Assembly: GCA_039029135.1 (NCBI GenBank)
Contig: JBCCGT010000002.1
Coordinates: 86,714 to 150,713, forward strand
Length of the DNA stretch: 64,000 nucleotides
Origin: Pseudomonadota bacterium
GTDB lineage: Bacteria; Pseudomonadota; Gammaproteobacteria; Pseudomonadales; Azotimanducaceae
Direction: 5' to 3'
Shown here piece by piece: positions 30,888-41,227 of the stretch; the stretch's first letter is position 1; every line of letters starts with the position of its first letter. Both the position numbers and the translations under genes were made by a program. The notes beneath the pieces were generated by a model. It worked only from the letters and a program-made list of their open reading frames with translations. It was not told the origin of the DNA and did no database searches.

Positions 30888-30912
30888 TATGAATGAGAAT
30901 GATTATCATTTG
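30888..30912. promoter_or_regulatory. Fur box
   Basis: The core of atGAATGAGAATGATTATCATTTGt matches the Fur consensus segment AATGATAATCATTATC at 14 of 16 positions. It lies in an AT-rich island about 80 nt upstream of the 30988 gene. Confidence 0.7.
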
Positions 30913-30987
30913 TGAAATCGGGCGTGGCGCATGCACCGTCCACGCACGCGGGCCGGGCATATTGGTTACGCCTTGAGGACTCACTAG

Positions 30988-35223: not shown

Positions 35224-36609
35224 TTACTGCAGGCCGCCGCGCGTCAGCTGATCGGGATCCAGGATGCGGCGCAGCTCGTCCTCTGCGATGTCCGTCTGCT
35301 CGACCGCGACGTCGAGAATCGGGCGCCCGTCCTTGTAGGCCGCCTTGGCAATCTCAGCGGCCTTGGCGTAGCCGATGACCGGATTCAGGGCAGTGACCAA
35401 GATGGGGTTGCGGTGCAGCGGCCCGGCCAGGCTGTCCGCGTTGACCTCGAAGGTGGCGATGGCGCGATCCGCGAGCAGCCGCGAGCTGTTGGCTAGCAGG
35501 TCGATGCTGCCTAGGAGGTTGTCCGCGATCACGGGCAGCATGACGTTCAGCTCGAAGTTGCCGGATTGACCCCCATTGGTAATCGCCGCATCGTTACCGA
35601 TGACCTGAGCGGCGACCATCGCCGTGGACTCGGGAATCACCGGGTTGACCTTGCCCGGCATGATGGACGAGCCGGGTTGCAGGGCCTCGAGCGTGATCTC
35701 ACCCAGCCCGGCAAGCGGTCCGGAGTTCATCCAGCGCAGGTCGTTGGCGATCTTTAGCAGCGCGACGGCCAGCGTCTTGAGCTGACCCGAGAGCGCCACC
35801 GCCGCGTCCTGGGATCCCAGCAGCGGAAAGTAGTTGGCCGCCGTCTGGAAGGCCACGCCGGTAGCATCGCTGAGATGCTGCGCGAAGCGCGCCCCGAATT
35901 CCGGGTGCGTGTTGATACCGGTGCCGACGGCGGTGCCGCCCAGCGCCAGTTCCTGCACGCCGGGTAGGACCGCGACCAGCCGCGCCTGCGCGTTGCGCAG
36001 TTGGTCGGCCCAGCTGCGCAGGCTCTGCGCCAGGGAAATCGGCATCGCATCCATCAGGTGGGTGCGGCCGGTCTTGTAAACCGTTTCCAGCTTCGCGGCC
36101 CGCGCTTCGATGGTGTCGATCAGGTGGATCAGCGCGGGCTGCAGTCGTTCGTGCACACCCAGCGCGGCGCTGACGTGGATCGTGGTCGGAATGACGTCGT
36201 TAGAGCTCTGACCGAAGTTGACGTGGTCGTTGGCGTTTACTTCGCTGCCCAGCGCGCGGCTCGCGAGCGTCGCCACCACCTCATTGGCGTTCATGTTGGT
36301 GCTGGTGCCCGAGCCGGTTTGAAACACATCGAGCGGAAAGTGGCGCATGACGTCATCGTCGTCGGCAAGCGAAGCACATACAGAGGCGATCGCATCCGCC
36401 ATGTCAGCGGGCAGGCAATCGAGCGCGGCGTTGGTCTTGGCCGCGTTCGCCTTGACGAGCAGCAGGGCGTCGATGAACGCGCGCGGCATGCGCCGTCCAC
36501 TAACCGGAAAGTTCTCGATGGCGCGCTGGGTCTGGGCGCCGTAGAGCGCATCCGCCGGTACCGTCAATTCGCCCATGCTGTCTTTGACAACACGTGTGCC
36601 CTCAGTCAT
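35224..36609 (-). CDS. fumC: class II fumarate hydratase (FumC; aspartase/fumarase superfamily)
   Basis: Signature GSSIMPGKVNP. The N-terminus KDSMGELTVPADALYGAQTQRA resembles FumC more than AspA. AGAGGA lies upstream of the ATG at 36609. Confidence 0.8.
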   Translation of the reverse strand: MTEGTRVVKDSMGELTVPADALYGAQTQRAIENFPVSGRRMPRAFIDALLLVKANAAKTNAALDCLPADMADAIASVCASLADDDDVMRHFPLDVFQTGSGTSTNMNANEVVATLASRALGSEVNANDHVNFGQSSNDVIPTTIHVSAALGVHERLQPALIHLIDTIEARAAKLETVYKTGRTHLMDAMPISLAQSLRSWADQLRNAQARLVAVLPGVQELALGGTAVGTGINTHPEFGARFAQHLSDATGVAFQTAANYFPLLGSQDAAVALSGQLKTLAVALLKIANDLRWMNSGPLAGLGEITLEALQPGSSIMPGKVNPVIPESTAMVAAQVIGNDAAITNGGQSGNFELNVMLPVIADNLLGSIDLLANSSRLLADRAIATFEVNADSLAGPLHRNPILVTALNPVIGYAKAAEIAKAAYKDGRPILDVAVEQTDIAEDELRRILDPDQLTRGGLQ

Positions 36610-36971
36610 CTCATGTCCTCTGTGGTGTTATCGGATCTGGTATTCACTGCGTCGCGTCAGCACGCCACGCTGATGTAGCCGTATAGCCTCACGCGTTTGC
36701 GCCCATTGCGCCAGCCCCGCAGCGCGCGGCGGCGACAGTGCCGGTCGATGGCCGCTTAAGCCAAGCCGTCAGTCCCGTCCTGTCGATCGACAACGGCGCC
36801 AATAGCGGCGTCGGACGCAGGAAGCCGGCAGGATTGTCCCCGGATTCCGGGACCTCGTCGATCGCCATGGCAACGCGCAGCGGATGCCGTCGGTCGCAAC
36901 GCTCGGGGTTTCTAAAGGCTCGGCCGCGCGTCGCCGTGATTTGGCACATTTTTCGTATTCTTAATTTTAAT

Positions 36972-36996
36972 ACTTATGAGAATCGTTTGCATTTGA
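36972..36996. promoter_or_regulatory. Fur box in the fumC / sodN divergent region
   Basis: acTTATGAGAATCGTTTGCATTTGa sits inside the most AT-rich stretch of the window (tttttcgtattcttaattttaatactt...). It shares ATGAGAAT...CATTTG with the other boxes in the window. Confidence 0.6.
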
Positions 36997-37049
36997 TATG
37001 CCCGGGCGCTAGTTTGAAAGCCGTCGTTTTTTGCGGATCCCCTTAGCCT

Positions 37050-37334
37050 ATGAAGCCCATATCGAAAACCACACTCACGACAGCAGCGCTCGCGAGCCTT
37101 GCATTCAGCCCTCTCGCCGCGGCCCATCACCACGCCGAGGCGACGCTCGGCTCGGGTACAATCGGCCTGCTGCTGATGATGCTGGGCGTGCTACTGGCGA
37201 CCGTCGCGCTCGTCCTGGATCGCCACGACGGCTCGCCACCGGATGCCCGTCGCACCCTTCGCAAAAGCGCCGCTCGACTCAACCCGCTACCGCTACTGAC
37301 ACGCGCCTCGAAACTGGGAGCCAACGCACCGTGA
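37050..37334 (+). CDS. small signal-peptide/TM protein with a His-His-His motif at the predicted mature N-terminus
   Basis: 94 aa: MKPISKTTLTTAALASLAFSPLAAA|HHHAEATLGSGTIGLLLMMLGVLLATVALVL... There is an AxA cleavage site, then HHH, then one TM helix. Its stop overlaps the sodN GTG (GTGA at 37331-37334). Confidence 0.5.
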   Translation: MKPISKTTLTTAALASLAFSPLAAAHHHAEATLGSGTIGLLLMMLGVLLATVALVLDRHDGSPPDARRTLRKSAARLNPLPLLTRASKLGANAP

Positions 37335-37801
37335 AACTCTTCGACATGACTCTGCCCAGCGTCCAGGGACACTGCGACGTGCCCTGCGGCATCTACGACC
37401 CGGCCACGGCCCAGATCGCCGCGCACTCGGTCGCACGCTTTCTCGACCAGATCGCAGAGCTGCCCGAAGGCTCGCTCGATCGCGCCGCGCAGGCACGCCT
37501 CGCGCGACTGGTCAGCCAGAAGGAGGCTCACGCGGCCGAGGTGAAGGCCGCGGTCGTGGTCATCTGGGGGGACTACTTCAAGGCACCGCAGTTCGAGGCG
37601 CACCCGTCGCTGCACGAGCTCACCCACAGCATTCTCCTGACCGCCTCGGCGTGTAAACAGGAGATCGATCCCGCCAACGGTCGCAAGCTGGTCGATCTGG
37701 TGAACGACTTTGCCGAGATCTTCTGGCAGACCAAGGACGTCGACACCGAGCGGGTGGTCGCCAAGTACGCGCCGAATCTGGAGATCGTCCGGCCGCGCTA
37801 G
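37331..37801 (+). CDS. sodN: nickel superoxide dismutase precursor (SodN)
   Basis: The Ni-hook motif HCDVPCGIYDP follows a short propeptide (VKLFDMTLPSVQG if the GTG at 37331 is used, MTLPSVQG if the ATG at 37346). Size and helical remainder fit NiSOD. Confidence 0.85.
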   Translation: MKLFDMTLPSVQGHCDVPCGIYDPATAQIAAHSVARFLDQIAELPEGSLDRAAQARLARLVSQKEAHAAEVKAAVVVIWGDYFKAPQFEAHPSLHELTHSILLTASACKQEIDPANGRKLVDLVNDFAEIFWQTKDVDTERVVAKYAPNLEIVRPR

Positions 37802-37869
37802 TCGGCGCAGCGTGCTCGTCGCGTCGTCGCCGGCGCGCGCCCGAGCCTAGACGTCGAGAGGTCGAGAGG

Positions 37870-37894
37870 TCGAGCGACGCGATCCGTCGCTCGA
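37870..37894 (+). terminator. perfect 10-bp stem / 5-nt loop hairpin downstream of sodN (no U-tract)
   Basis: TCGAGCGACG-CGATC-CGTCGCTCGA, preceded by a GTCGAGAG GTCGAGAG GTCGAGCG direct repeat. Confidence 0.35.
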
Positions 37895-37957
37895 TGCTAA
37901 CGGAGGCACCCCGGAGGCTTCACAGACGGTTCACCGGGGTGTTGCCAATCTAACGGC

Positions 37958-38536
37958 ATGACCGCTGGCATGCCCACCGACAGAACCATCACCCCGCGCT
38001 GGGTCCTGTGTCTTGCGCTGCTCGCCTGCCTGATTGCGGCCAATGCGGCCAGTGAGACACACACCATGTTCGACGCGAGCGCAGAAGGCCACTCCTGGCA
38101 AATCGTCAACGACACCGTGATGGGCGGGCGATCGAGCTCGACGTTCGATCACACCGACGAGGGGTTCGTGTTCTCCGGGCTGCTCAACAACAACGGCGGC
38201 GGCTTCGCGTCGGTGCGGGCCAGAGCCCCTTCGGGCGGCATCACCGGCAGCGACGCGATCCGTCTGACCGTCCTGGGCGATGGACGCACCTACCAGCTAC
38301 GTCTGAACAGTCGACGCCATCGCTACAACTACCAGCACAAGTTCGCCACCCGCGCGGGCGAGTGGCAGACCCACACGCTGCCGCTCGACGACTTCCGGGC
38401 GAGCTGGCGCGGCCGCAAGCTCGATCGGCCGGCGCCCGACCCCACCGACGTGATGGGCTTCGGGATTCTGCTGGCCGACGGCAGAGATGGGCCGTTCCGT
38501 ATCGCGGTGGACCGTATCGAAGCGATCCAGCGCTAA
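37958..38536 (+). CDS. CIA30 (complex I intermediate-associated protein 30-like) family protein, secreted
   Basis: Signal peptide followed by WQIVNDTVMGGRSSSTF, the hallmark CIA30 motif. Confidence 0.7.
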   Translation: MTAGMPTDRTITPRWVLCLALLACLIAANAASETHTMFDASAEGHSWQIVNDTVMGGRSSSTFDHTDEGFVFSGLLNNNGGGFASVRARAPSGGITGSDAIRLTVLGDGRTYQLRLNSRRHRYNYQHKFATRAGEWQTHTLPLDDFRASWRGRKLDRPAPDPTDVMGFGILLADGRDGPFRIAVDRIEAIQR

Positions 38537-38540
38537 CCCT

Positions 38541-38567
38541 CTGCGGGCCGAAGTTCGGCCACCGCAG
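38541..38567 (+). terminator. GC-rich hairpin after the CIA30 gene (no U-tract)
   Basis: CTGCG-GGCCGA-agt-TCGGCC-ac-CGCAG. Confidence 0.3.
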
Positions 38568-38793
38568 CCTGGCGGCGACCATTTGCTGTTAGCGATGGCG
38601 CCCCTCTGACATCCCGCTTCGCCTGGATTTACGCAGCTTTATAGCCCTTCTCCCCCGTCCGGTCCGTCTGCGGCCGGACGCCCCCCGTGACGCCGCGCCA
38701 CGCCGGCGCAGAGCGCCTGTGCACCCCACTGGAACATCGCCAAAACCGCCCCGCTAGAGGATTGCGGTTCGATCGGGCCGCACGGTATGATTA

Positions 38794-38820
38794 AATGATA
38801 ATGAGAATAATTACCATTTG
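38794..38820. promoter_or_regulatory. Fur box (best match in the window)
   Basis: GATAATGAGAATAATTACC (38797-38815) matches GATAATGATAATCATTATC at 16 of 19 positions. It lies about 55 nt upstream of the receptor start. Confidence 0.8.
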
Positions 38821-38872
38821 CAGTTTCATCAGCAAAGCAACTCACAAGCGACATAACCAAGGGGAAAGGTCG

Positions 38873-41227
38873 ATGGCAACACAACACCGCCACTGGTGGG
38901 CGCTCGGCTTGGCCGCCGCCTGCACCACCGCGTGGGCACAGGACGACGGCGAACGCCTGCAGGAGACCGTCATTCAGGCGGAACCCACCATTTCAATCGC
39001 GACACGCTCGCTCGGCTCGGAAGAGCTGGTGCAGCAGATGACCGATACGATCGAAGACACGGTGCGCTACATCCCTGGCGTGCAGGTCAACGACAGCGGC
39101 AACCGCTTCAACGACAACGGCTTCAACATTCGGGGTCTGGAAGGCGACTTCGTCGCCGTGACAATCGACGGCGTCGACCAGGGCGAGACCCTGAATCCGC
39201 CTTCCTTCTCTCCCTACGGCTTCTTCGGTTCCAGTCGCGGTGCAATAGAAGTGGAGACGGTCAAGGCCATCCAGGTCACCAAAGGTCCGAACTCGGTCTC
39301 GGTTGGCAACGGCGCGCTGGCGGGCGCGGTTACCTATGTAACCAAGGACCCGAGCGACTTCCTGCAGCCCGACGGCAACGACAGCGCGATCGCCATCAAG
39401 ACCGGCTACGACAGCCGCTCCGATGAGATGATGGTCAGCGCCGCGCTCGCGAACCGCGCCGGACGCGTCGAATCGCTGTTCCAGGCGACCTATCGCGACG
39501 GCCACGAGGTCGAGGCGCACGACAGCGGCGACGACATCAACGGCAGCGCCCGCGGCCAGGCCGACCCCTTCGACCGCGAAGAGCTCGCGCTGTTGGCTAA
39601 GGTCGACTTCGCCGTGCGCGACAACCACACGCTCGGCCTGGTATGGGAAAAGGTGCAGCGCGACATCGATGGCACGCCGCTGTCGAGAGAAGAAGGACCG
39701 ACCTATTTCGACTTCATCACCGACGATCTGAATGACCGTGATCGTATCGGCATCAGCTACGACATAGACGACGCGCAGCTTGGCTTCGCCGACGAGATCG
39801 CCGCGACATTCGACTATCAGTACCTGCACACCCAAGGCATCACGACCTTTGGCTTCAACTCCGCCCGCACGATGGAGCAGTTCCTGCGCCAGGAAGATCG
39901 CGCCTTCAAACAAGAGACCTACCGCGTCGGTCTCGATCTCAGTAAAGAACTGACGCTCGGCAGTCTGGAACACGAGCTCACGTACGGTATCGAGTACGAA
40001 ACTATCGAGGTCAACAACGAGCTGTTCGATAAGCGCTACGTGGGACTGACCATGGATTCGGGTGAACGGTCCTTCAACGTCGACGGCACGTGGGTCCCGG
40101 AAACCGACATCGATCGTTTCAGCCTCTATCTGCGCGATGAAGTCCGTTTCACCGATCGCGTCAGCGGATTCGCCGGGGTTCGCGTCGACAGCACGGAGTA
40201 CTCGCCGGAGGTGGATGACCGCTTCCCTGATCCGACGGGTGACACCTTATTCGACGCGGACTTTACCGCCTGGGCCGGTGAGATCGGCCTGCGCGTCGAG
40301 GTTGCCGATGGCCACAGCATCGCGGCGTCCGTCAGCCAAGGCTACAAGGCACCGACCACGCAGGATCTGTTCCTGGACGTCGGCAGCGGTTTCGTCACTG
40401 ACATCACCACCGGCAACGAGGTGCTGGACATCGAGGAAGTCTCGAATCCGGACCTGGATCCGGAGCGTTCGACCAACTACGAGCTGTCGTACCTGTTCCA
40501 GCGCGGCCGCACGCGTATCGAGCTCACGGGCTTCTTCACGGACTACGATGAGTTCATCCAGAACGTATCGGACGCCGTGCCCTACGCTCAGCCGATCACG
40601 GTACAGGAATTCAGCTTCGCCACCTTCACCTTCGTCAATGTCACCAGGACCGAAGACGCTTTCGTAAGGGCGGAAAACGTCGGTGCGGTCGAGCTGTTTG
40701 GCTTCGAACTGGACGGCCAGTTCGCATTCAACGACCAGTGGTCGGTGCGCTTCGGCTACTCTCACGTCGAGGGCGAGCACAAGTCTTCGAGCCTCAGCCA
40801 GATCAACGGGTTCCAGGATGGCGACGATCTCGTAACAGCGTCGCCGGACTCGGCTCTGCTGTCGCTGCGCTATCAGGCACCGCAAGGTAACTGGGGCGGC
40901 TCCGCCAACTTCGTCTGGACCGACGGCGTCGATGAGTCAACGGATGCGAGCTTCACGTCGCTCAACAACGGCGAAGGTCCCGTGCACTACCCCGACTCCT
41001 GGACGACGCTGGATCTGATCGGCTTCTACCAGTTCGAGCAGCTCGGCGGTCTGCGCCTCTCCGTGGCCGTGCGCAACGTCTGGGACGAAGACTATGTGCG
41101 CTGGGAAGTGATCAACGGCGTGCGTCCCGGCAACGGCGGCTTCTTCGCCGGCGCCAGCGGCAACGGCTTCGAGCGCTTCTCCGATCCCGGACGCAGCGTC
41201 TCAGTCGACCTCAGCCTGAACTTCTGA
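38873..41227 (+). CDS. TonB-dependent outer-membrane receptor (siderophore/haem type)
   Basis: The ATG at 38873 follows GGGGAAAGG. Signal peptide ...ACTTAWAQDD. Plug motifs (TVIQAEP, NIRGLEG, IEVETVKAIQVTKGPNSV) and a terminal ...SVDLSLNF. Confidence 0.9.
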   Translation: MATQHRHWWALGLAAACTTAWAQDDGERLQETVIQAEPTISIATRSLGSEELVQQMTDTIEDTVRYIPGVQVNDSGNRFNDNGFNIRGLEGDFVAVTIDGVDQGETLNPPSFSPYGFFGSSRGAIEVETVKAIQVTKGPNSVSVGNGALAGAVTYVTKDPSDFLQPDGNDSAIAIKTGYDSRSDEMMVSAALANRAGRVESLFQATYRDGHEVEAHDSGDDINGSARGQADPFDREELALLAKVDFAVRDNHTLGLVWEKVQRDIDGTPLSREEGPTYFDFITDDLNDRDRIGISYDIDDAQLGFADEIAATFDYQYLHTQGITTFGFNSARTMEQFLRQEDRAFKQETYRVGLDLSKELTLGSLEHELTYGIEYETIEVNNELFDKRYVGLTMDSGERSFNVDGTWVPETDIDRFSLYLRDEVRFTDRVSGFAGVRVDSTEYSPEVDDRFPDPTGDTLFDADFTAWAGEIGLRVEVADGHSIAASVSQGYKAPTTQDLFLDVGSGFVTDITTGNEVLDIEEVSNPDLDPERSTNYELSYLFQRGRTRIELTGFFTDYDEFIQNVSDAVPYAQPITVQEFSFATFTFVNVTRTEDAFVRAENVGAVELFGFELDGQFAFNDQWSVRFGYSHVEGEHKSSSLSQINGFQDGDDLVTASPDSALLSLRYQAPQGNWGGSANFVWTDGVDESTDASFTSLNNGEGPVHYPDSWTTLDLIGFYQFEQLGGLRLSVAVRNVWDEDYVRWEVINGVRPGNGGFFAGASGNGFERFSDPGRSVSVDLSLNF

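What the first reader, a model, noticed from the sequence alone, without database searches (positions are those of the whole stretch)
37050..37334. Small membrane protein with a predicted mature N-terminus HHH (ATCUN-type Ni/Cu site), translationally coupled to sodN
The 94-aa ORF has a signal peptide ending in an AxA site (SPLAAA|HHHAE), followed by one TM helix and a basic tail. Cleavage would expose NH2-His-His-His. A free amino terminus with His at position 3 is the classical ATCUN motif, which binds Ni(II) and Cu(II). Its stop codon overlaps the GTG start of sodN (GTGA at 37331-37334), which argues for co-expression. I could not place this protein in any described NiSOD accessory family; the known partner is the SodX peptidase. 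It might capture or relay nickel at the membrane for NiSOD.
Basis: inference. Interest (0 to 1): 0.6.

Follow-up and report, generated by a model that had tools for sequence, protein, structure and literature searches.

The report
Small His-tipped membrane protein before NiSOD
A tiny gene directly in front of the nickel superoxide dismutase gene encodes a membrane-anchored peptide with a histidine tip; it belongs to a widespread, unnamed family found beside nickel enzymes in marine bacteria and probably helps supply nickel, though no experiment has tested this.

Summary
The 94-codon ORF (37050-37334) is real. Its TGA overlaps the GTG start of a bona fide sodN, and its product has the stated build: signal peptide ending AAA|HHH, one TM helix, basic tail.

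It is not an orphan. Homologous ORFs occupy the same position in the nearest sodN loci (BLASTP 5e-9 and 2e-7). Of 80 proteobacterial sodN loci, 61-65 carry a 50-90 aa gene of the same build just upstream (consensus A|HPGHDHxHW..IHxL, one TM, basic tail). A profile finds 890 clusters, nearly all named "hypothetical". The closest Pfam family, DUF6732, matches only below threshold.

Weaker relatives lie in urease and [NiFe]-hydrogenase loci. One passes the HupE/UreJ cutoff as a one-helix "mini-HupE". All 27 full HupE/UreJ permeases examined also start A|H.

The ATCUN reading fails as the conserved mode. Pro follows His1 in 72% of members, and only 6 of 292 are ATCUN-compatible. One close homologue has no His at all.

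Best reading (0.55): a periplasm-facing, His-tipped nickel capture or uptake helper for NiSOD, working like the first segment of HupE/UreJ. This is inferred from gene context only. I found no description in the searchable literature.

The parts
36978..36996 (.). Fur-box-like sequence GAGAATCGTTTGCATTTGA in the AT-rich spacer between divergent fumC and the mini gene. It is a candidate operator for iron-repressed expression.
   Evidence: It matches 14/19 to each of the two strong Fur-consensus sites in the window, at 38803 and 30895. The generic sigma-70 scan found no promoter. This is inference.
37050..37334 (+). Mini gene, 94 aa: a divergent member of the His-tipped single-pass membrane protein family that precedes sodN.
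   Evidence: the ORF. (rank 1 of 36,055 ORFs against the leave-out family HMM). (BLASTP 5e-9 and 2e-7 to ORFs upstream of sodN in L016 and L015). (same build in 61-65 of 80 sodN loci).
37050..37124 (+). Predicted Sec signal peptide, residues 1-25 (MKPISK / TTLTTAALASLAFSPL / AAA), with cleavage AAA|H.
   Evidence: The family alignment has A25 invariant and H26 in at least 90%. In 292 members, -1 is Ala in 96% and -3 is Ala or Val in 79%; the median length is 22. Cleavage itself is not shown.
37125..37133 (+). His-His-His, residues 26-28: the predicted mature N-terminus and the periplasm-facing metal-binding tip.
   Evidence: Sequence. His1 of the mature form is the conserved family feature; His3 is not.
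37152..37229 (+). Single transmembrane helix, about residues 35-60 (GTIGLLLMMLGVLLATVALVLD...).
   Evidence: AlphaFold2 helix 35-60 with pLDDT 73-84 in an otherwise low-confidence model. Hydropathy 2.76. It is the best-conserved stretch with L016 and L015.
37230..37331 (+). Basic, low-complexity C-terminal tail, predicted cytoplasmic (positive-inside rule).
   Evidence: Mean net tail charge in the family is +3.8. The tail sequence is poorly conserved.
37317..37320 (+). GGAG Shine-Dalgarno for sodN, inside the 3' end of the mini gene, 10 nt before the GTG.
   Evidence: Relatives L014 and L017 have AAGGAGG at the same place.
37331..37801 (+). sodN, nickel superoxide dismutase precursor. The 13-aa propeptide spans 37331-37369 and the Ni-hook HCDVPCGIY starts at 37370.
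   Evidence: PF09055 1.5e-44 and TIGR02753 155 bits.
35224..36609 (-). fumC (class II fumarase), transcribed divergently from the mini gene-sodN pair. Context only.
   Evidence: Lyase_1 plus FumaraseC_C.
38795..41227 (+). TonB-dependent receptor with a strong Fur box over its 5' end (38797-38815, 16/19), followed on the minus strand by PepSY_TM_like_2, TPR and TonB genes. This is an iron-starvation context and a recurrent neighbour of sodN clusters.
   Evidence: TonB-dependent receptors also lie next to sodN in L014, L017, L059 and L087 and in L160/L161.

Best explanation
The ORF encodes a genuine small inner-membrane protein. After Sec export and signal-peptidase cleavage at AAA|HHH (inferred), about 9 residues carrying the free N-terminal His cluster face the periplasm. 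One helix spans the membrane and a basic tail stays in the cytoplasm.

It is a divergent member of a large, unnamed family (60-80 aa; consensus A|HPGHDHxHW..IHxL, one TM, K/R tail). This family is the usual first gene of proteobacterial NiSOD operons (mini gene, sodN, sodX).

The most likely job is nickel acquisition for NiSOD. The His tip, that is the N-terminal amine, the His1 imidazole and neighbouring His, captures Ni(II) at the outer face of the inner membrane. It then passes the nickel inwards, either through an oligomer of its own helices or to a permease. In that respect it works like the processed N-terminus plus first helix of HupE/UreJ nickel permeases.

It is made together with SodN through overlapping stop and start codons, probably under iron-starvation (Fur) control.

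Shown: the gene, its conservation, its position, the motif statistics and purifying selection. Inferred: cleavage, topology, nickel binding and transport.
For: Conservation at the same position:
- 61 of 80 sodN loci pass a strict rule for the build. With three weaker-scoring members that makes 64, and 65 with the His-less homologue.
- In a 401-genome class sample, 7 of the 8 genomes with SodX-type sodN have the mini gene directly upstream.
- Three reverse look-ups from family members (Veronia, Cobetia, Parahaliea) all land on mini gene, Sod_Ni, S24/S26 peptidase.

A real coding family:
- 890 clusters at E<=1e-3, all about 60-80 aa.
- dN/dS is 0.10-0.42 in close pairs, including L014/L017 of this sub-clade.

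This ORF belongs to the family:
- It ranks first of 36,055 own-genome ORFs against the leave-out HMM.
- BLASTP gives 5e-9 and 2e-7 to the L016 and L015 ORFs.

Link to nickel:
- Weaker profile hits in genomes without sodN lie next to UreD or UreC (L108, L111, L116, L122, L125, L126), between the NiFe-hydrogenase large subunit and cytochrome b (L104, L106) or just after the large subunit (L105, L110), and next to a HypE-like protein (L103). Neighbours were confirmed with Pfam.
- The L110 one-helix protein passes the Pfam HupE_UreJ cutoff (24.1 bits).
- 27 of 27 full HupE/UreJ proteins start A|H after a signal peptide.
- In two sodN loci (L029, L088) the same slot holds a ~123-aa HupE/UreJ-like protein.
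- In marine cyanobacteria that slot holds the putative Ni permease SodT (PMC4284471).
- An N-terminal His after a signal peptide is an established metal chelator and is proposed to feed HupE/UreJ-2 permeases (PMC12537917).

Other support:
- Five of 7 genomes with the mini gene lack NicO, CbiM and canonical HupE/UreJ. The one SodX-type genome without it (G322) has 2 HupE/UreJ and 3 NicO.
- This genome has no Fe/Mn SOD homologue, so NiSOD supply matters.
Against:
- Homology to HupE/UreJ is not established. hhalign gives E=4.5e-7 with signal peptides included but only E=0.08 for the mature parts.
- The window protein lacks the family's in-helix His and the HW motif.
- Its close homologue in L016 has no His tip at all yet keeps sodN and sodX, so the tip may be dispensable in this sub-clade.
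- One TM helix is not a known transporter architecture.
- This genome encodes three HupE/UreJ-2-type proteins with A|H ends that could import nickel instead.
- A His cluster would also bind Cu(II) or Zn(II).
- The transporter inventory covers only 8 genomes and omits NikABCDE and UreH.
Confidence: 0.55

Rival explanations
1. ATCUN reading, as proposed by the first reader. The mature NH2-His-His-His binds Ni(II) or Cu(II) in the classical square-planar ATCUN mode: amine, two amide nitrogens and the His3 imidazole. This mode would be the functional core.
For: The predicted mature end of this one protein is H-H-H, with His at position 3 and no Pro at position 2.
Against: Only 6 of 292 family members are ATCUN-compatible, and 72% have Pro at position 2, which cannot supply the amide nitrogen. 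The nearest relatives read HHGHLHE and HHGGSHE (Gly3), or have no His at all. ATCUN sites also bind very tightly and exchange slowly, which suits a relay poorly (general knowledge).
Confidence: 0.08
2. Regulatory leader or sensor. The exported nascent peptide reports periplasmic nickel (or export status) and tunes translation of the overlapping sodN. The copper-sensing leader CutF does this for cutO.
For: Stop-start overlap with the sodN SD buried in the mini gene is conserved in this sub-clade. A small exported metal-motif peptide in front of a metalloenzyme gene has a precedent (PMC9973294, title and abstract only). The association with three different nickel enzymes would also suit a sensor.
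Against: Most family members are separated from sodN by 10-80 nt rather than overlapping (gap values). No conserved C-terminal stalling motif exists; tails are variable and basic. A stable TM helix under purifying selection points to a lasting membrane protein. No structured RNA was found.
Confidence: 0.12
3. Membrane tether or assembly factor. The cytoplasmic tail recruits pro-SodN or SodX to the membrane, or the protein stabilises another transporter as KdpF or CbiN do. The His tip would be secondary.
For: The L016 homologue keeps the helix and tail but has no His tip. Small single-helix subunits of metal transporters are known (CbiN, CbtB, KdpF: general knowledge). One source names a member CbiN.
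Against: The tail is the least conserved part, whereas the His tip is the most conserved across 292 members. No partner membrane gene is conserved next to it.
Confidence: 0.1
4. Another metal or another role. The tip handles Cu(II) or Zn(II), or buffers or excludes excess metal at the membrane, and the link to NiSOD is indirect.
For: N-terminal His sites often prefer copper (PMC12537917). A Copper-bind (PF00127) gene lies nearby in the Veronia locus.
Against: Co-location is with sodN, urease and NiFe-hydrogenase genes, not with copper or zinc systems.
Confidence: 0.08
5. Spurious ORF in GC-rich DNA.
For: In-frame GC3 is only 0.72, against 0.80-0.88 for neighbouring genes. The SD is weak. The sodN frame is itself open upstream to 37031.
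Against: Homologues at the same position, the top rank against the family HMM, and purifying selection in relatives.
Confidence: 0.03

Closest known systems
HupE/UreJ nickel permeases (Pfam PF04955), N-terminal segment
   Same: Both have a Sec signal peptide cut to leave His as residue 1 (27 of 27 HupE/UreJ examined). A short His-bearing periplasmic stretch is followed by a helix that often carries His. Both are encoded beside nickel-enzyme genes. One-helix versions in hydrogenase loci pass or approach the Pfam cutoff (L110 24.1 bits, L103 17.4 bits). HupE/UreJ-like genes occupy the same slot before sodN in L029 and L088.
   Different: The mini protein has one helix instead of six. The HPxxGxDH and FHGxxHG signatures are absent from the window protein and from the sodN-linked core family. 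Mature-part profile comparison is not significant (E=0.08). The window ORF has no Pfam hit.
Pfam DUF6732 (PF20506), function unknown
   Same: Similar length and build. 43 of 63 sodN-linked members give weak matches (best 1.3e-4). A few database members are labelled DUF6732, and one of them (Veronia) sits before sodN.
   Different: No member scanned reaches the 27-bit cutoff, and the window ORF gives no match at all. No paper mentions DUF6732, so the name adds no function.
SodT (UreH-family putative Ni permease beside sodN-sodX in Prochlorococcus and marine Synechococcus)
   Same: It takes the same operon position and has the same presumed task, supplying nickel to NiSOD (PMC4284471).
   Different: SodT has six TM helices and a cytoplasmic His-rich loop. 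There is no sequence relation, and SodT is itself untested.
'Anglerase' domains Ang-1/Ang-2 and DUF4198 (N-terminal-His metal-capture proteins, Franco Cairo et al. 2025, PMC12537917)
   Same: The principle is the same: the residue exposed by signal-peptide cleavage is a His that chelates a metal in the periplasm and is proposed to feed a HupE/UreJ-2 permease. This genome also encodes three such fusion-type proteins.
   Different: Anglerases are folded beta-sandwich domains of about 150 aa fused to a permease. Here the capture part is about 9-15 unstructured residues on a single helix with no attached permease.
ATCUN (amino-terminal Cu/Ni) motif
   Same: The predicted mature HHH has a free amine and His at position 3.
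   Different: The motif is not conserved in the family (6 of 292; Pro2 in 72%).
Small single-helix or two-helix subunits of Co/Ni transporters (CbtB, CbiN, NikL)
   Same: They are small, membrane-bound and sometimes His-rich, and they act in Ni/Co uptake (general knowledge; PMC2667541 lists the systems).
   Different: Those subunits are always encoded with their large partners (CbtA, CbiM/Q/O). No such partner is conserved here, and CbiM is absent from this genome.

Membership tests
ATCUN motif | Free alpha-amino group at residue 1 of the mature chain | not testable with these tools
   This depends on signal-peptidase cleavage at AAA|H. Cleavage is supported only by the -3/-1 rule and family conservation.
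ATCUN motif | His at position 3 and a non-Pro residue at position 2 | tested here: met
   The window protein reads H-H-H. The feature is met in only 6 of 292 family members, so it is incidental.
sodN-linked His-tipped mini-protein family (unnamed) | Gene of 50-100 codons ending within about 200 nt upstream of sodN on the same strand | tested here: met
   The stop overlaps the sodN GTG. The same position is occupied in 61-65 of 80 loci.
sodN-linked His-tipped mini-protein family (unnamed) | Signal peptide with Ala at -1 directly followed by His, then one TM helix and a basic tail | tested here: met
   AAA|HHH, helix 35-60, and a K/R-rich tail.
sodN-linked His-tipped mini-protein family (unnamed) | Core motif HPGHDHxHW and a His inside the helix (IHxL) | tested here: not met
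   The window has HHHAEATLG and no His in the helix. It is a divergent sub-clade with L014-L017.
sodN-linked His-tipped mini-protein family (unnamed) | Sequence similarity to members beyond chance | tested here: met
   Leave-out HMM: E=0.021 and rank 1 of 36,055 ORFs. BLASTP 5e-9 and 2e-7 to L016 and L015.
Pfam DUF6732 (PF20506) | Score at or above the 27-bit gathering cutoff | tested here: not met
   The window ORF gives no match. Relatives match only below the cutoff.
HupE/UreJ (PF04955) | Score at or above the 23-bit cutoff; six TM helices; HPxxGxDH in helix 1 | tested here: not met
   No Pfam match, one helix and no such motif. Mature-part hhalign gives E=0.08.
HupE/UreJ (PF04955) | Signal peptide processed to leave His as the first residue | tested here: met
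   27 of 27 HupE/UreJ have A|H, as does the window ORF (prediction only).
NiSOD (sodN), the neighbouring gene | Sod_Ni domain with the Ni-hook HCxxPCxxY after a short propeptide | tested here: met
   PF09055 1.5e-44 and TIGR02753 155 bits; HCDVPCGIY after a 13-aa leader.

The most novel reading that the evidence does not exclude
The mature peptide, about 45-70 residues in the family, is itself a minimal nickel importer. Several copies would associate through their single helices. The ring of N-terminal His clusters would capture Ni(II) and pass it down a His-lined pore to the cytoplasm, where pro-NiSOD, urease or hydrogenase maturation factors wait. It would be an evolutionary reduction of HupE/UreJ to signal peptide, His1 and helix 1, the smallest metal permease known, and the main nickel entry route for NiSOD in abundant marine bacteria such as SAR86.
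Probability: 0.2. Interest if true: 0.85.

Novelty: new variant of a known kind. Interest (0 to 1): 0.62.

Why it matters
How NiSOD obtains nickel is known only in outline: SodX cleavage, a proposed chaperone in Streptomyces, and the untested SodT in cyanobacteria. For proteobacteria nothing has been proposed. NiSOD is the main or only cytoplasmic SOD in many abundant, iron-starved marine bacteria. This genome has no Fe/Mn SOD homologue.

A conserved first gene of the NiSOD operon, with relatives in urease and hydrogenase loci, gives a concrete and cheap target: a 60-90 codon gene and a 9-residue peptide. It could be used to test nickel capture at the inner membrane. It also extends the recent idea that signal-peptide-exposed N-terminal His residues mark metal-handling proteins to a form with no folded domain.

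Because such genes fall near or below common ORF-length cutoffs and are named "hypothetical", they are easily missed in annotation.

Tried and rejected
- Single-sequence searches with the window ORF found nothing. These covered the 5.8-billion-protein word index and 60 relatives. Only synteny-guided reading of sodN loci revealed the family.
- A search with the sub-clade alignment found no members beyond the five already known.
- Pfam and NCBIfam give no hit for the window ORF.
- DUF6732 was sought in 400 class genomes. There was one weak hit, which was uninformative.
- Homology of the mature parts to HupE/UreJ by hhalign is not significant. I therefore rejected filing the protein as HupE/UreJ.
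- AlphaFold2 on the 5-sequence alignment gave pLDDT 60, helices only and no fold to search. No fold search was run.
- Rfam found no riboswitch or leader RNA in 36500-38900.
- The generic promoter and terminator scan found nothing.
- Synteny with the four same-genus genomes is not conserved. They lack sodN, and their fumC is only 62-63% identical with very different GC3. No statement on recent acquisition is possible.
- TIGR02754 suggested that SodX is absent (33 bits, below cutoff). I rejected this after an HMM built from proteobacterial SodX found a clear homologue at C2:268167-268556 (2.2e-21).
- Literature searches for DUF6732, sodN with a small or His-rich membrane protein, and NiSOD gene neighbourhoods found no description of this gene.

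Full report
**1. The observation**

The window holds an ATG-started ORF at 37050..37334 (+) of 94 codons. Its TGA (37332-37334) overlaps a GTG at 37331. That GTG opens a 156-aa protein that is clearly NiSOD: PF09055 at 1.5e-44, TIGR02753 at 155 bits against a cutoff of 90, and the Ni-hook HCDVPCGIY after a 13-residue leader. A GGAG lies 10 nt before the GTG, inside the small ORF. The alternative ATG at 37346 has no such signal.

The product reads MKPISK-TTLTTAALASLAFSPL-AAA|HHH-AEATLGSGT-[IGLLLMMLGVLLATVALVL]-DRHDGSPPDARRTLRKSAARLN... This is a signal-peptide-like start with Ala at -3 and -1, three His, one hydrophobic helix and a basic tail. AlphaFold2 on a 5-sequence alignment gives only helices, at residues 6-25 and 35-60. 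Only the second is moderately confident, and mean pLDDT is 60. The description is therefore correct. The ORF has no Pfam or NCBIfam match.

**2. Not an orphan**

Direct searches with the ORF found nothing. sodN itself is patchy: it is absent from the four same-genus genomes and present in 10 of 61 relatives.

I then fetched 80 sodN loci from 185,579 species genomes and read what lies upstream. Most carry a 50-90 codon gene on the same strand, ending 0-200 nt before sodN, with the same build.
- Marinomonas: ...QVAQA|HPGHDHSHWTSEPIHILTMVAIGTVIVGGLAYKHMTRRK...
- Pseudoteredinibacter: ...MALA|HPGHDHGHW...
- SAR86: ...NLSA|HGEGISSLHIHGES...
- PS1-clade alphaproteobacteria: ...LFA|HPGHHHSF...

A strict rule (hydrophobic start, [AGS]H, TM, length) is met in 61 of 80 loci. 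Three more clear members fail it only on hydrophobicity. One homologue lacks His. Two loci are cut off upstream. Two carry a ~123-aa HupE/UreJ-like gene in that slot. sodX follows sodN in nearly all loci.

In the alignment of 63 sequences, the Ala before the His is invariant and the His is present in at least 90%.

**3. This ORF belongs to the family**

The four sodN genes most similar to the window's (63-67% identity; L014-L017, marine Pseudomonadota MAGs) have upstream ORFs that align with it. L016 shows 50% identity over 44 residues (E=5e-9). L015 shows 30% over 73 residues (E=2e-7).

An HMM built from about 300 family members, excluding the window ORF and these four, ranks the window ORF first among 36,055 ORFs of 40-200 aa in its own genome (E=0.021, 15.8 bits). 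All four relatives also overlap the mini-gene stop with the sodN start: TAATG after AAGGAGG in L014 and L017, TAATG in L016, and 8 nt in L015. A search with the sub-clade alignment found no further members.

**4. The family**

- **Size.** A profile search of 1.84 billion cluster representatives finds 890 clusters at E<=1e-3, all about 50-100 aa.
- **Names.** Where they exist, names are "hypothetical protein". There are a few "DUF6732" and single stray labels such as "CbiN".
- **Pfam.** Of 63 members, 43 match DUF6732 below threshold (best 1.3e-4) and 7 touch HupE_UreJ. No paper in the library mentions DUF6732.
- **Motif statistics in 292 distinct members.** Position -1 is Ala in 96%. Position -3 is Ala or Val in 79%. 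The median signal peptide is 22 aa. The mature end reads H1, P2 (72%), G3 (92%), H4 (90%), D5 (77%), H6 (83%), H8 (65%), W9 (73%) and H15 (79%, in the helix). Mean net tail charge is +3.8.
- **ATCUN.** Only 6 of 292 members have His3 without Pro2.
- **Selection.** Close pairs give dN/dS of 0.10-0.42.

**5. Co-occurrence**

In an even sample of 401 genomes of the class, 9 have sodN. One of these, G275, has a Sec-signal NiSOD without SodX, which is a different type. Of the other 8, 7 have the mini gene directly upstream. The profile found 6 of them, and reading the locus found one more, G456.

Three look-ups starting from family members (Veronia, Cobetia, Parahaliea) all returned mini gene, Sod_Ni, S24/S26 peptidase, preceded by a DUF2753 gene.

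**6. A wider nickel link**

The weaker profile hits in genomes that lack sodN were not random.
- **Full permeases.** Some hits are the N-termini of full HupE/UreJ permeases, for example L102 beside ureG.
- **Hydrogenase loci.** Others are separate one-helix proteins placed between the NiFe-hydrogenase large subunit and its cytochrome b (L104, L106), just after the large subunit (L105, L110), or next to a HypE-like protein (L103).
- **Urease loci.** Still others lie next to ureD or ureC (L108, L111, L116, L122, L125, L126).

Pfam confirmed the neighbours. The L110 protein (A|HPSGEHPQGLATGLWHLLTQPDHLLML..., one helix) passes the Pfam HupE_UreJ cutoff over model positions 4-51 (24.1 bits). All 27 full HupE/UreJ proteins I extracted begin A|H after their signal peptide.

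This gives a graded series: six-helix HupE/UreJ, then one-helix "mini-HupE" in hydrogenase and urease loci, then the sodN-linked HPGHDH family, and finally the window's reduced form.

Formal homology of the mature parts is not shown. hhalign gives E=4.5e-7 with signal peptides included but 0.08 without them. I therefore claim functional resemblance, not membership.

**7. Genome context**

- **SodX.** It is present but unlinked, at C2:268167-268556, 144 kb from sodN. It scores 2.2e-21 against an HMM of proteobacterial SodX. TIGR02754 alone had missed it.
- **Other SODs and nickel enzymes.** tblastn finds no Fe/Mn SOD homologue. It does find a urease cluster at C2:48-53 kb with no transporter gene in it, and no NiFe hydrogenase.
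- **Known importers.** NicO and CbiM are absent. There are three HupE/UreJ-2-type proteins with A|H ends, two of which have ~150-aa periplasmic domains like the published "anglerases" (PMC12537917).
- **Comparison across 8 genomes.** Five of the 7 genomes with the mini gene lack NicO, CbiM and canonical HupE/UreJ. The one SodX-type genome without it has several. This is suggestive, but the numbers are small.
- **Iron context.** The pair sits in an iron-starvation neighbourhood. fumC is divergent. A TonB-dependent receptor with a 16/19 Fur box lies downstream, with PepSY-like, TPR and TonB genes. A siderophore-interacting protein lies behind a 15/19 Fur box. The spacer before the mini gene holds a sequence that matches those two boxes at 14/19.

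**8. Mechanism**

The evidence shows a conserved, selected, co-located small membrane protein whose most conserved part is the residue run right after a canonical signal-peptidase site. From this I infer four things.
- **Cleavage.** Cleavage leaves His1 with a free amine.
- **Topology.** The N-terminus faces out and the C-terminus in, by the positive-inside rule.
- **Metal binding.** The amine, the His1 imidazole and His4/6/8 (here His2 and His3) bind Ni(II).
- **Delivery.** The metal is passed inward for NiSOD.

This mirrors what is proposed for the processed N-terminus of HupE/UreJ and for anglerase domains (PMC4284471, PMC12537917). It also matches the position of SodT in cyanobacterial sodN clusters (PMC4284471). 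Whether the peptide acts alone as an oligomer or with a partner is open.

The main rivals are:
- a CutF-like translational sensor (PMC9973294);
- a tether or stabiliser;
- handling of another metal.

The ATCUN mode is a peculiarity of this sequence, not the family's principle.

**9. Caveats specific to this window**

The window protein is the most reduced member seen. It has three His, no HW motif and no helix His. The L016 homologue has none at all. In this sub-clade the tip may be decaying, or the helix and tail may carry the function.

**10. Novelty**

I found no description in the searchable literature. Zhang et al. 2009 (PMC2667541) and the 2025 signal-strapping paper (PMC12537917) do not mention it. 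That note is not independent evidence, but I confirmed the SAR86 genes myself (L022-L025, L044, L046, L058, L066).

New here:
- the breadth of the family (890 clusters);
- the motif statistics that rule out ATCUN;
- the urease and hydrogenase relatives and the mini-HupE bridge;
- the DUF2753 partner;
- this divergent GC-rich sub-clade.

Noticed in passing
own genome, whole (outside and inside the window): tblastn with a SodB protein finds no Fe/Mn superoxide dismutase homologue in the 5.4-Mb genome (100% complete). NiSOD may therefore be the only cytoplasmic SOD. Cu/Zn SOD was not checked.
   Followed up: partly
own genome C2:268167-268556 (+), 144 kb beyond sodN, outside the window: The NiSOD maturation protease SodX is present but unlinked. 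In nearly all other proteobacterial loci it directly follows sodN. TIGR02754 scores it below cutoff (33 bits), whereas an HMM of proteobacterial SodX gives 2.2e-21.
   Followed up: yes
window 38797-38815 and 30889-30913; also 36978-36996: There are two strong Fur-box matches. One (16/19) lies over the 5' end of the TonB-dependent receptor, so its true start is probably the later ATG (MATQHRHWW...). The other (15/19) lies before the DUF6607 and siderophore-interacting-protein genes. A weaker relative of these boxes sits before the mini gene-sodN pair, opposite fumC. This recalls the iron-starvation fumC-sodA arrangement of Pseudomonas (from memory).
   Followed up: partly
L028:3274-3717, L087:3270-3734, L157:3566-3988, L158:3571-3975, L160:3561-4010 and 18 more loci: A DUF2753 (TPR-like, 134-154 aa) gene lies directly upstream of the mini gene in 23 of 80 sodN loci, and in the Veronia, Cobetia and Parahaliea loci. 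Five of the six full-length seeds end in His. It is absent from this genome. It may be a further uncharacterised NiSOD-cluster component.
   Followed up: partly
L104:1417-1692, L106:1495-1698, L105:1498-1671, L110:1480-1734 (-), L103:1486-1704: One-helix proteins with a signal peptide and an A|H end sit inside NiFe-hydrogenase clusters: between the large subunit and cytochrome b, after the large subunit, or next to a HypE-like gene. The L110 protein passes the Pfam HupE_UreJ cutoff as a one-helix 'mini-HupE'.
   Followed up: partly
L125:1495-1707 (-), L126:1435-1710, L116:1495-1701 (-), L122:1498-1707 (-), L108:1465-1668, L111 (minus strand, beside ureC): Similar one-helix A|H proteins lie beside ureD or ureC in urease clusters of several genera.
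   Followed up: partly
own genome C1:43189-43356 (-): A second mini ORF of the same build (MRKSAIAALTLLAPLAHA|HHESAADHG..., one TM, RRD tail; 55 aa) is the second-best hit of the family HMM in this genome (E=0.12). It lies between a CoA-transferase-like gene and an enoyl-CoA-hydratase-like gene, with no nickel enzyme nearby.
   Followed up: no
own genome C8:184707-185774 (-), C4:62799-63908 (-), C2:277434-278195 (+): Three HupE/UreJ-2-type membrane proteins have a signal peptide cut to A|H. Two of them have ~150-aa periplasmic domains and resemble the published 'anglerase'-permease fusions. Similar ~350-400 aa proteins give weak HupE_UreJ hits in many genomes of the class.
   Followed up: partly
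L016:1616-1855: This is the closest homologue of the window ORF by identity (50% over 44 aa). It has no His at the predicted mature end (…WAEA|SPGPGTETLG…) yet keeps sodN and sodX downstream.
   Followed up: partly
L164 (G275:C211), minus strand 2227-2682: A NiSOD with a classical Sec signal peptide ending SAHA|HCQIPCGIYDD. It has no SodX and no mini gene, so it is a periplasmic-type NiSOD. This agrees with earlier notes of the scan on exported NiSODs.
   Followed up: no
window 37031-37801 (+): The sodN reading frame is open upstream to a TTG at 37031, giving a spurious 256-aa ORF that swallows the mini gene in another frame. Gene callers could mis-annotate a long SodN here.
   Followed up: yes
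L029:3536-3910 and L088:58-429: In a Rhodospirillaceae MAG and an Acidobacteriota MAG, the slot before sodN holds a ~123-aa, roughly 3-4-helix protein. It has an A|H end and a HupE-like H..L..DH motif, and its HupE_UreJ score is just below cutoff (22.5 bits). It looks like an intermediate between the full permease and the one-helix form.
   Followed up: partly
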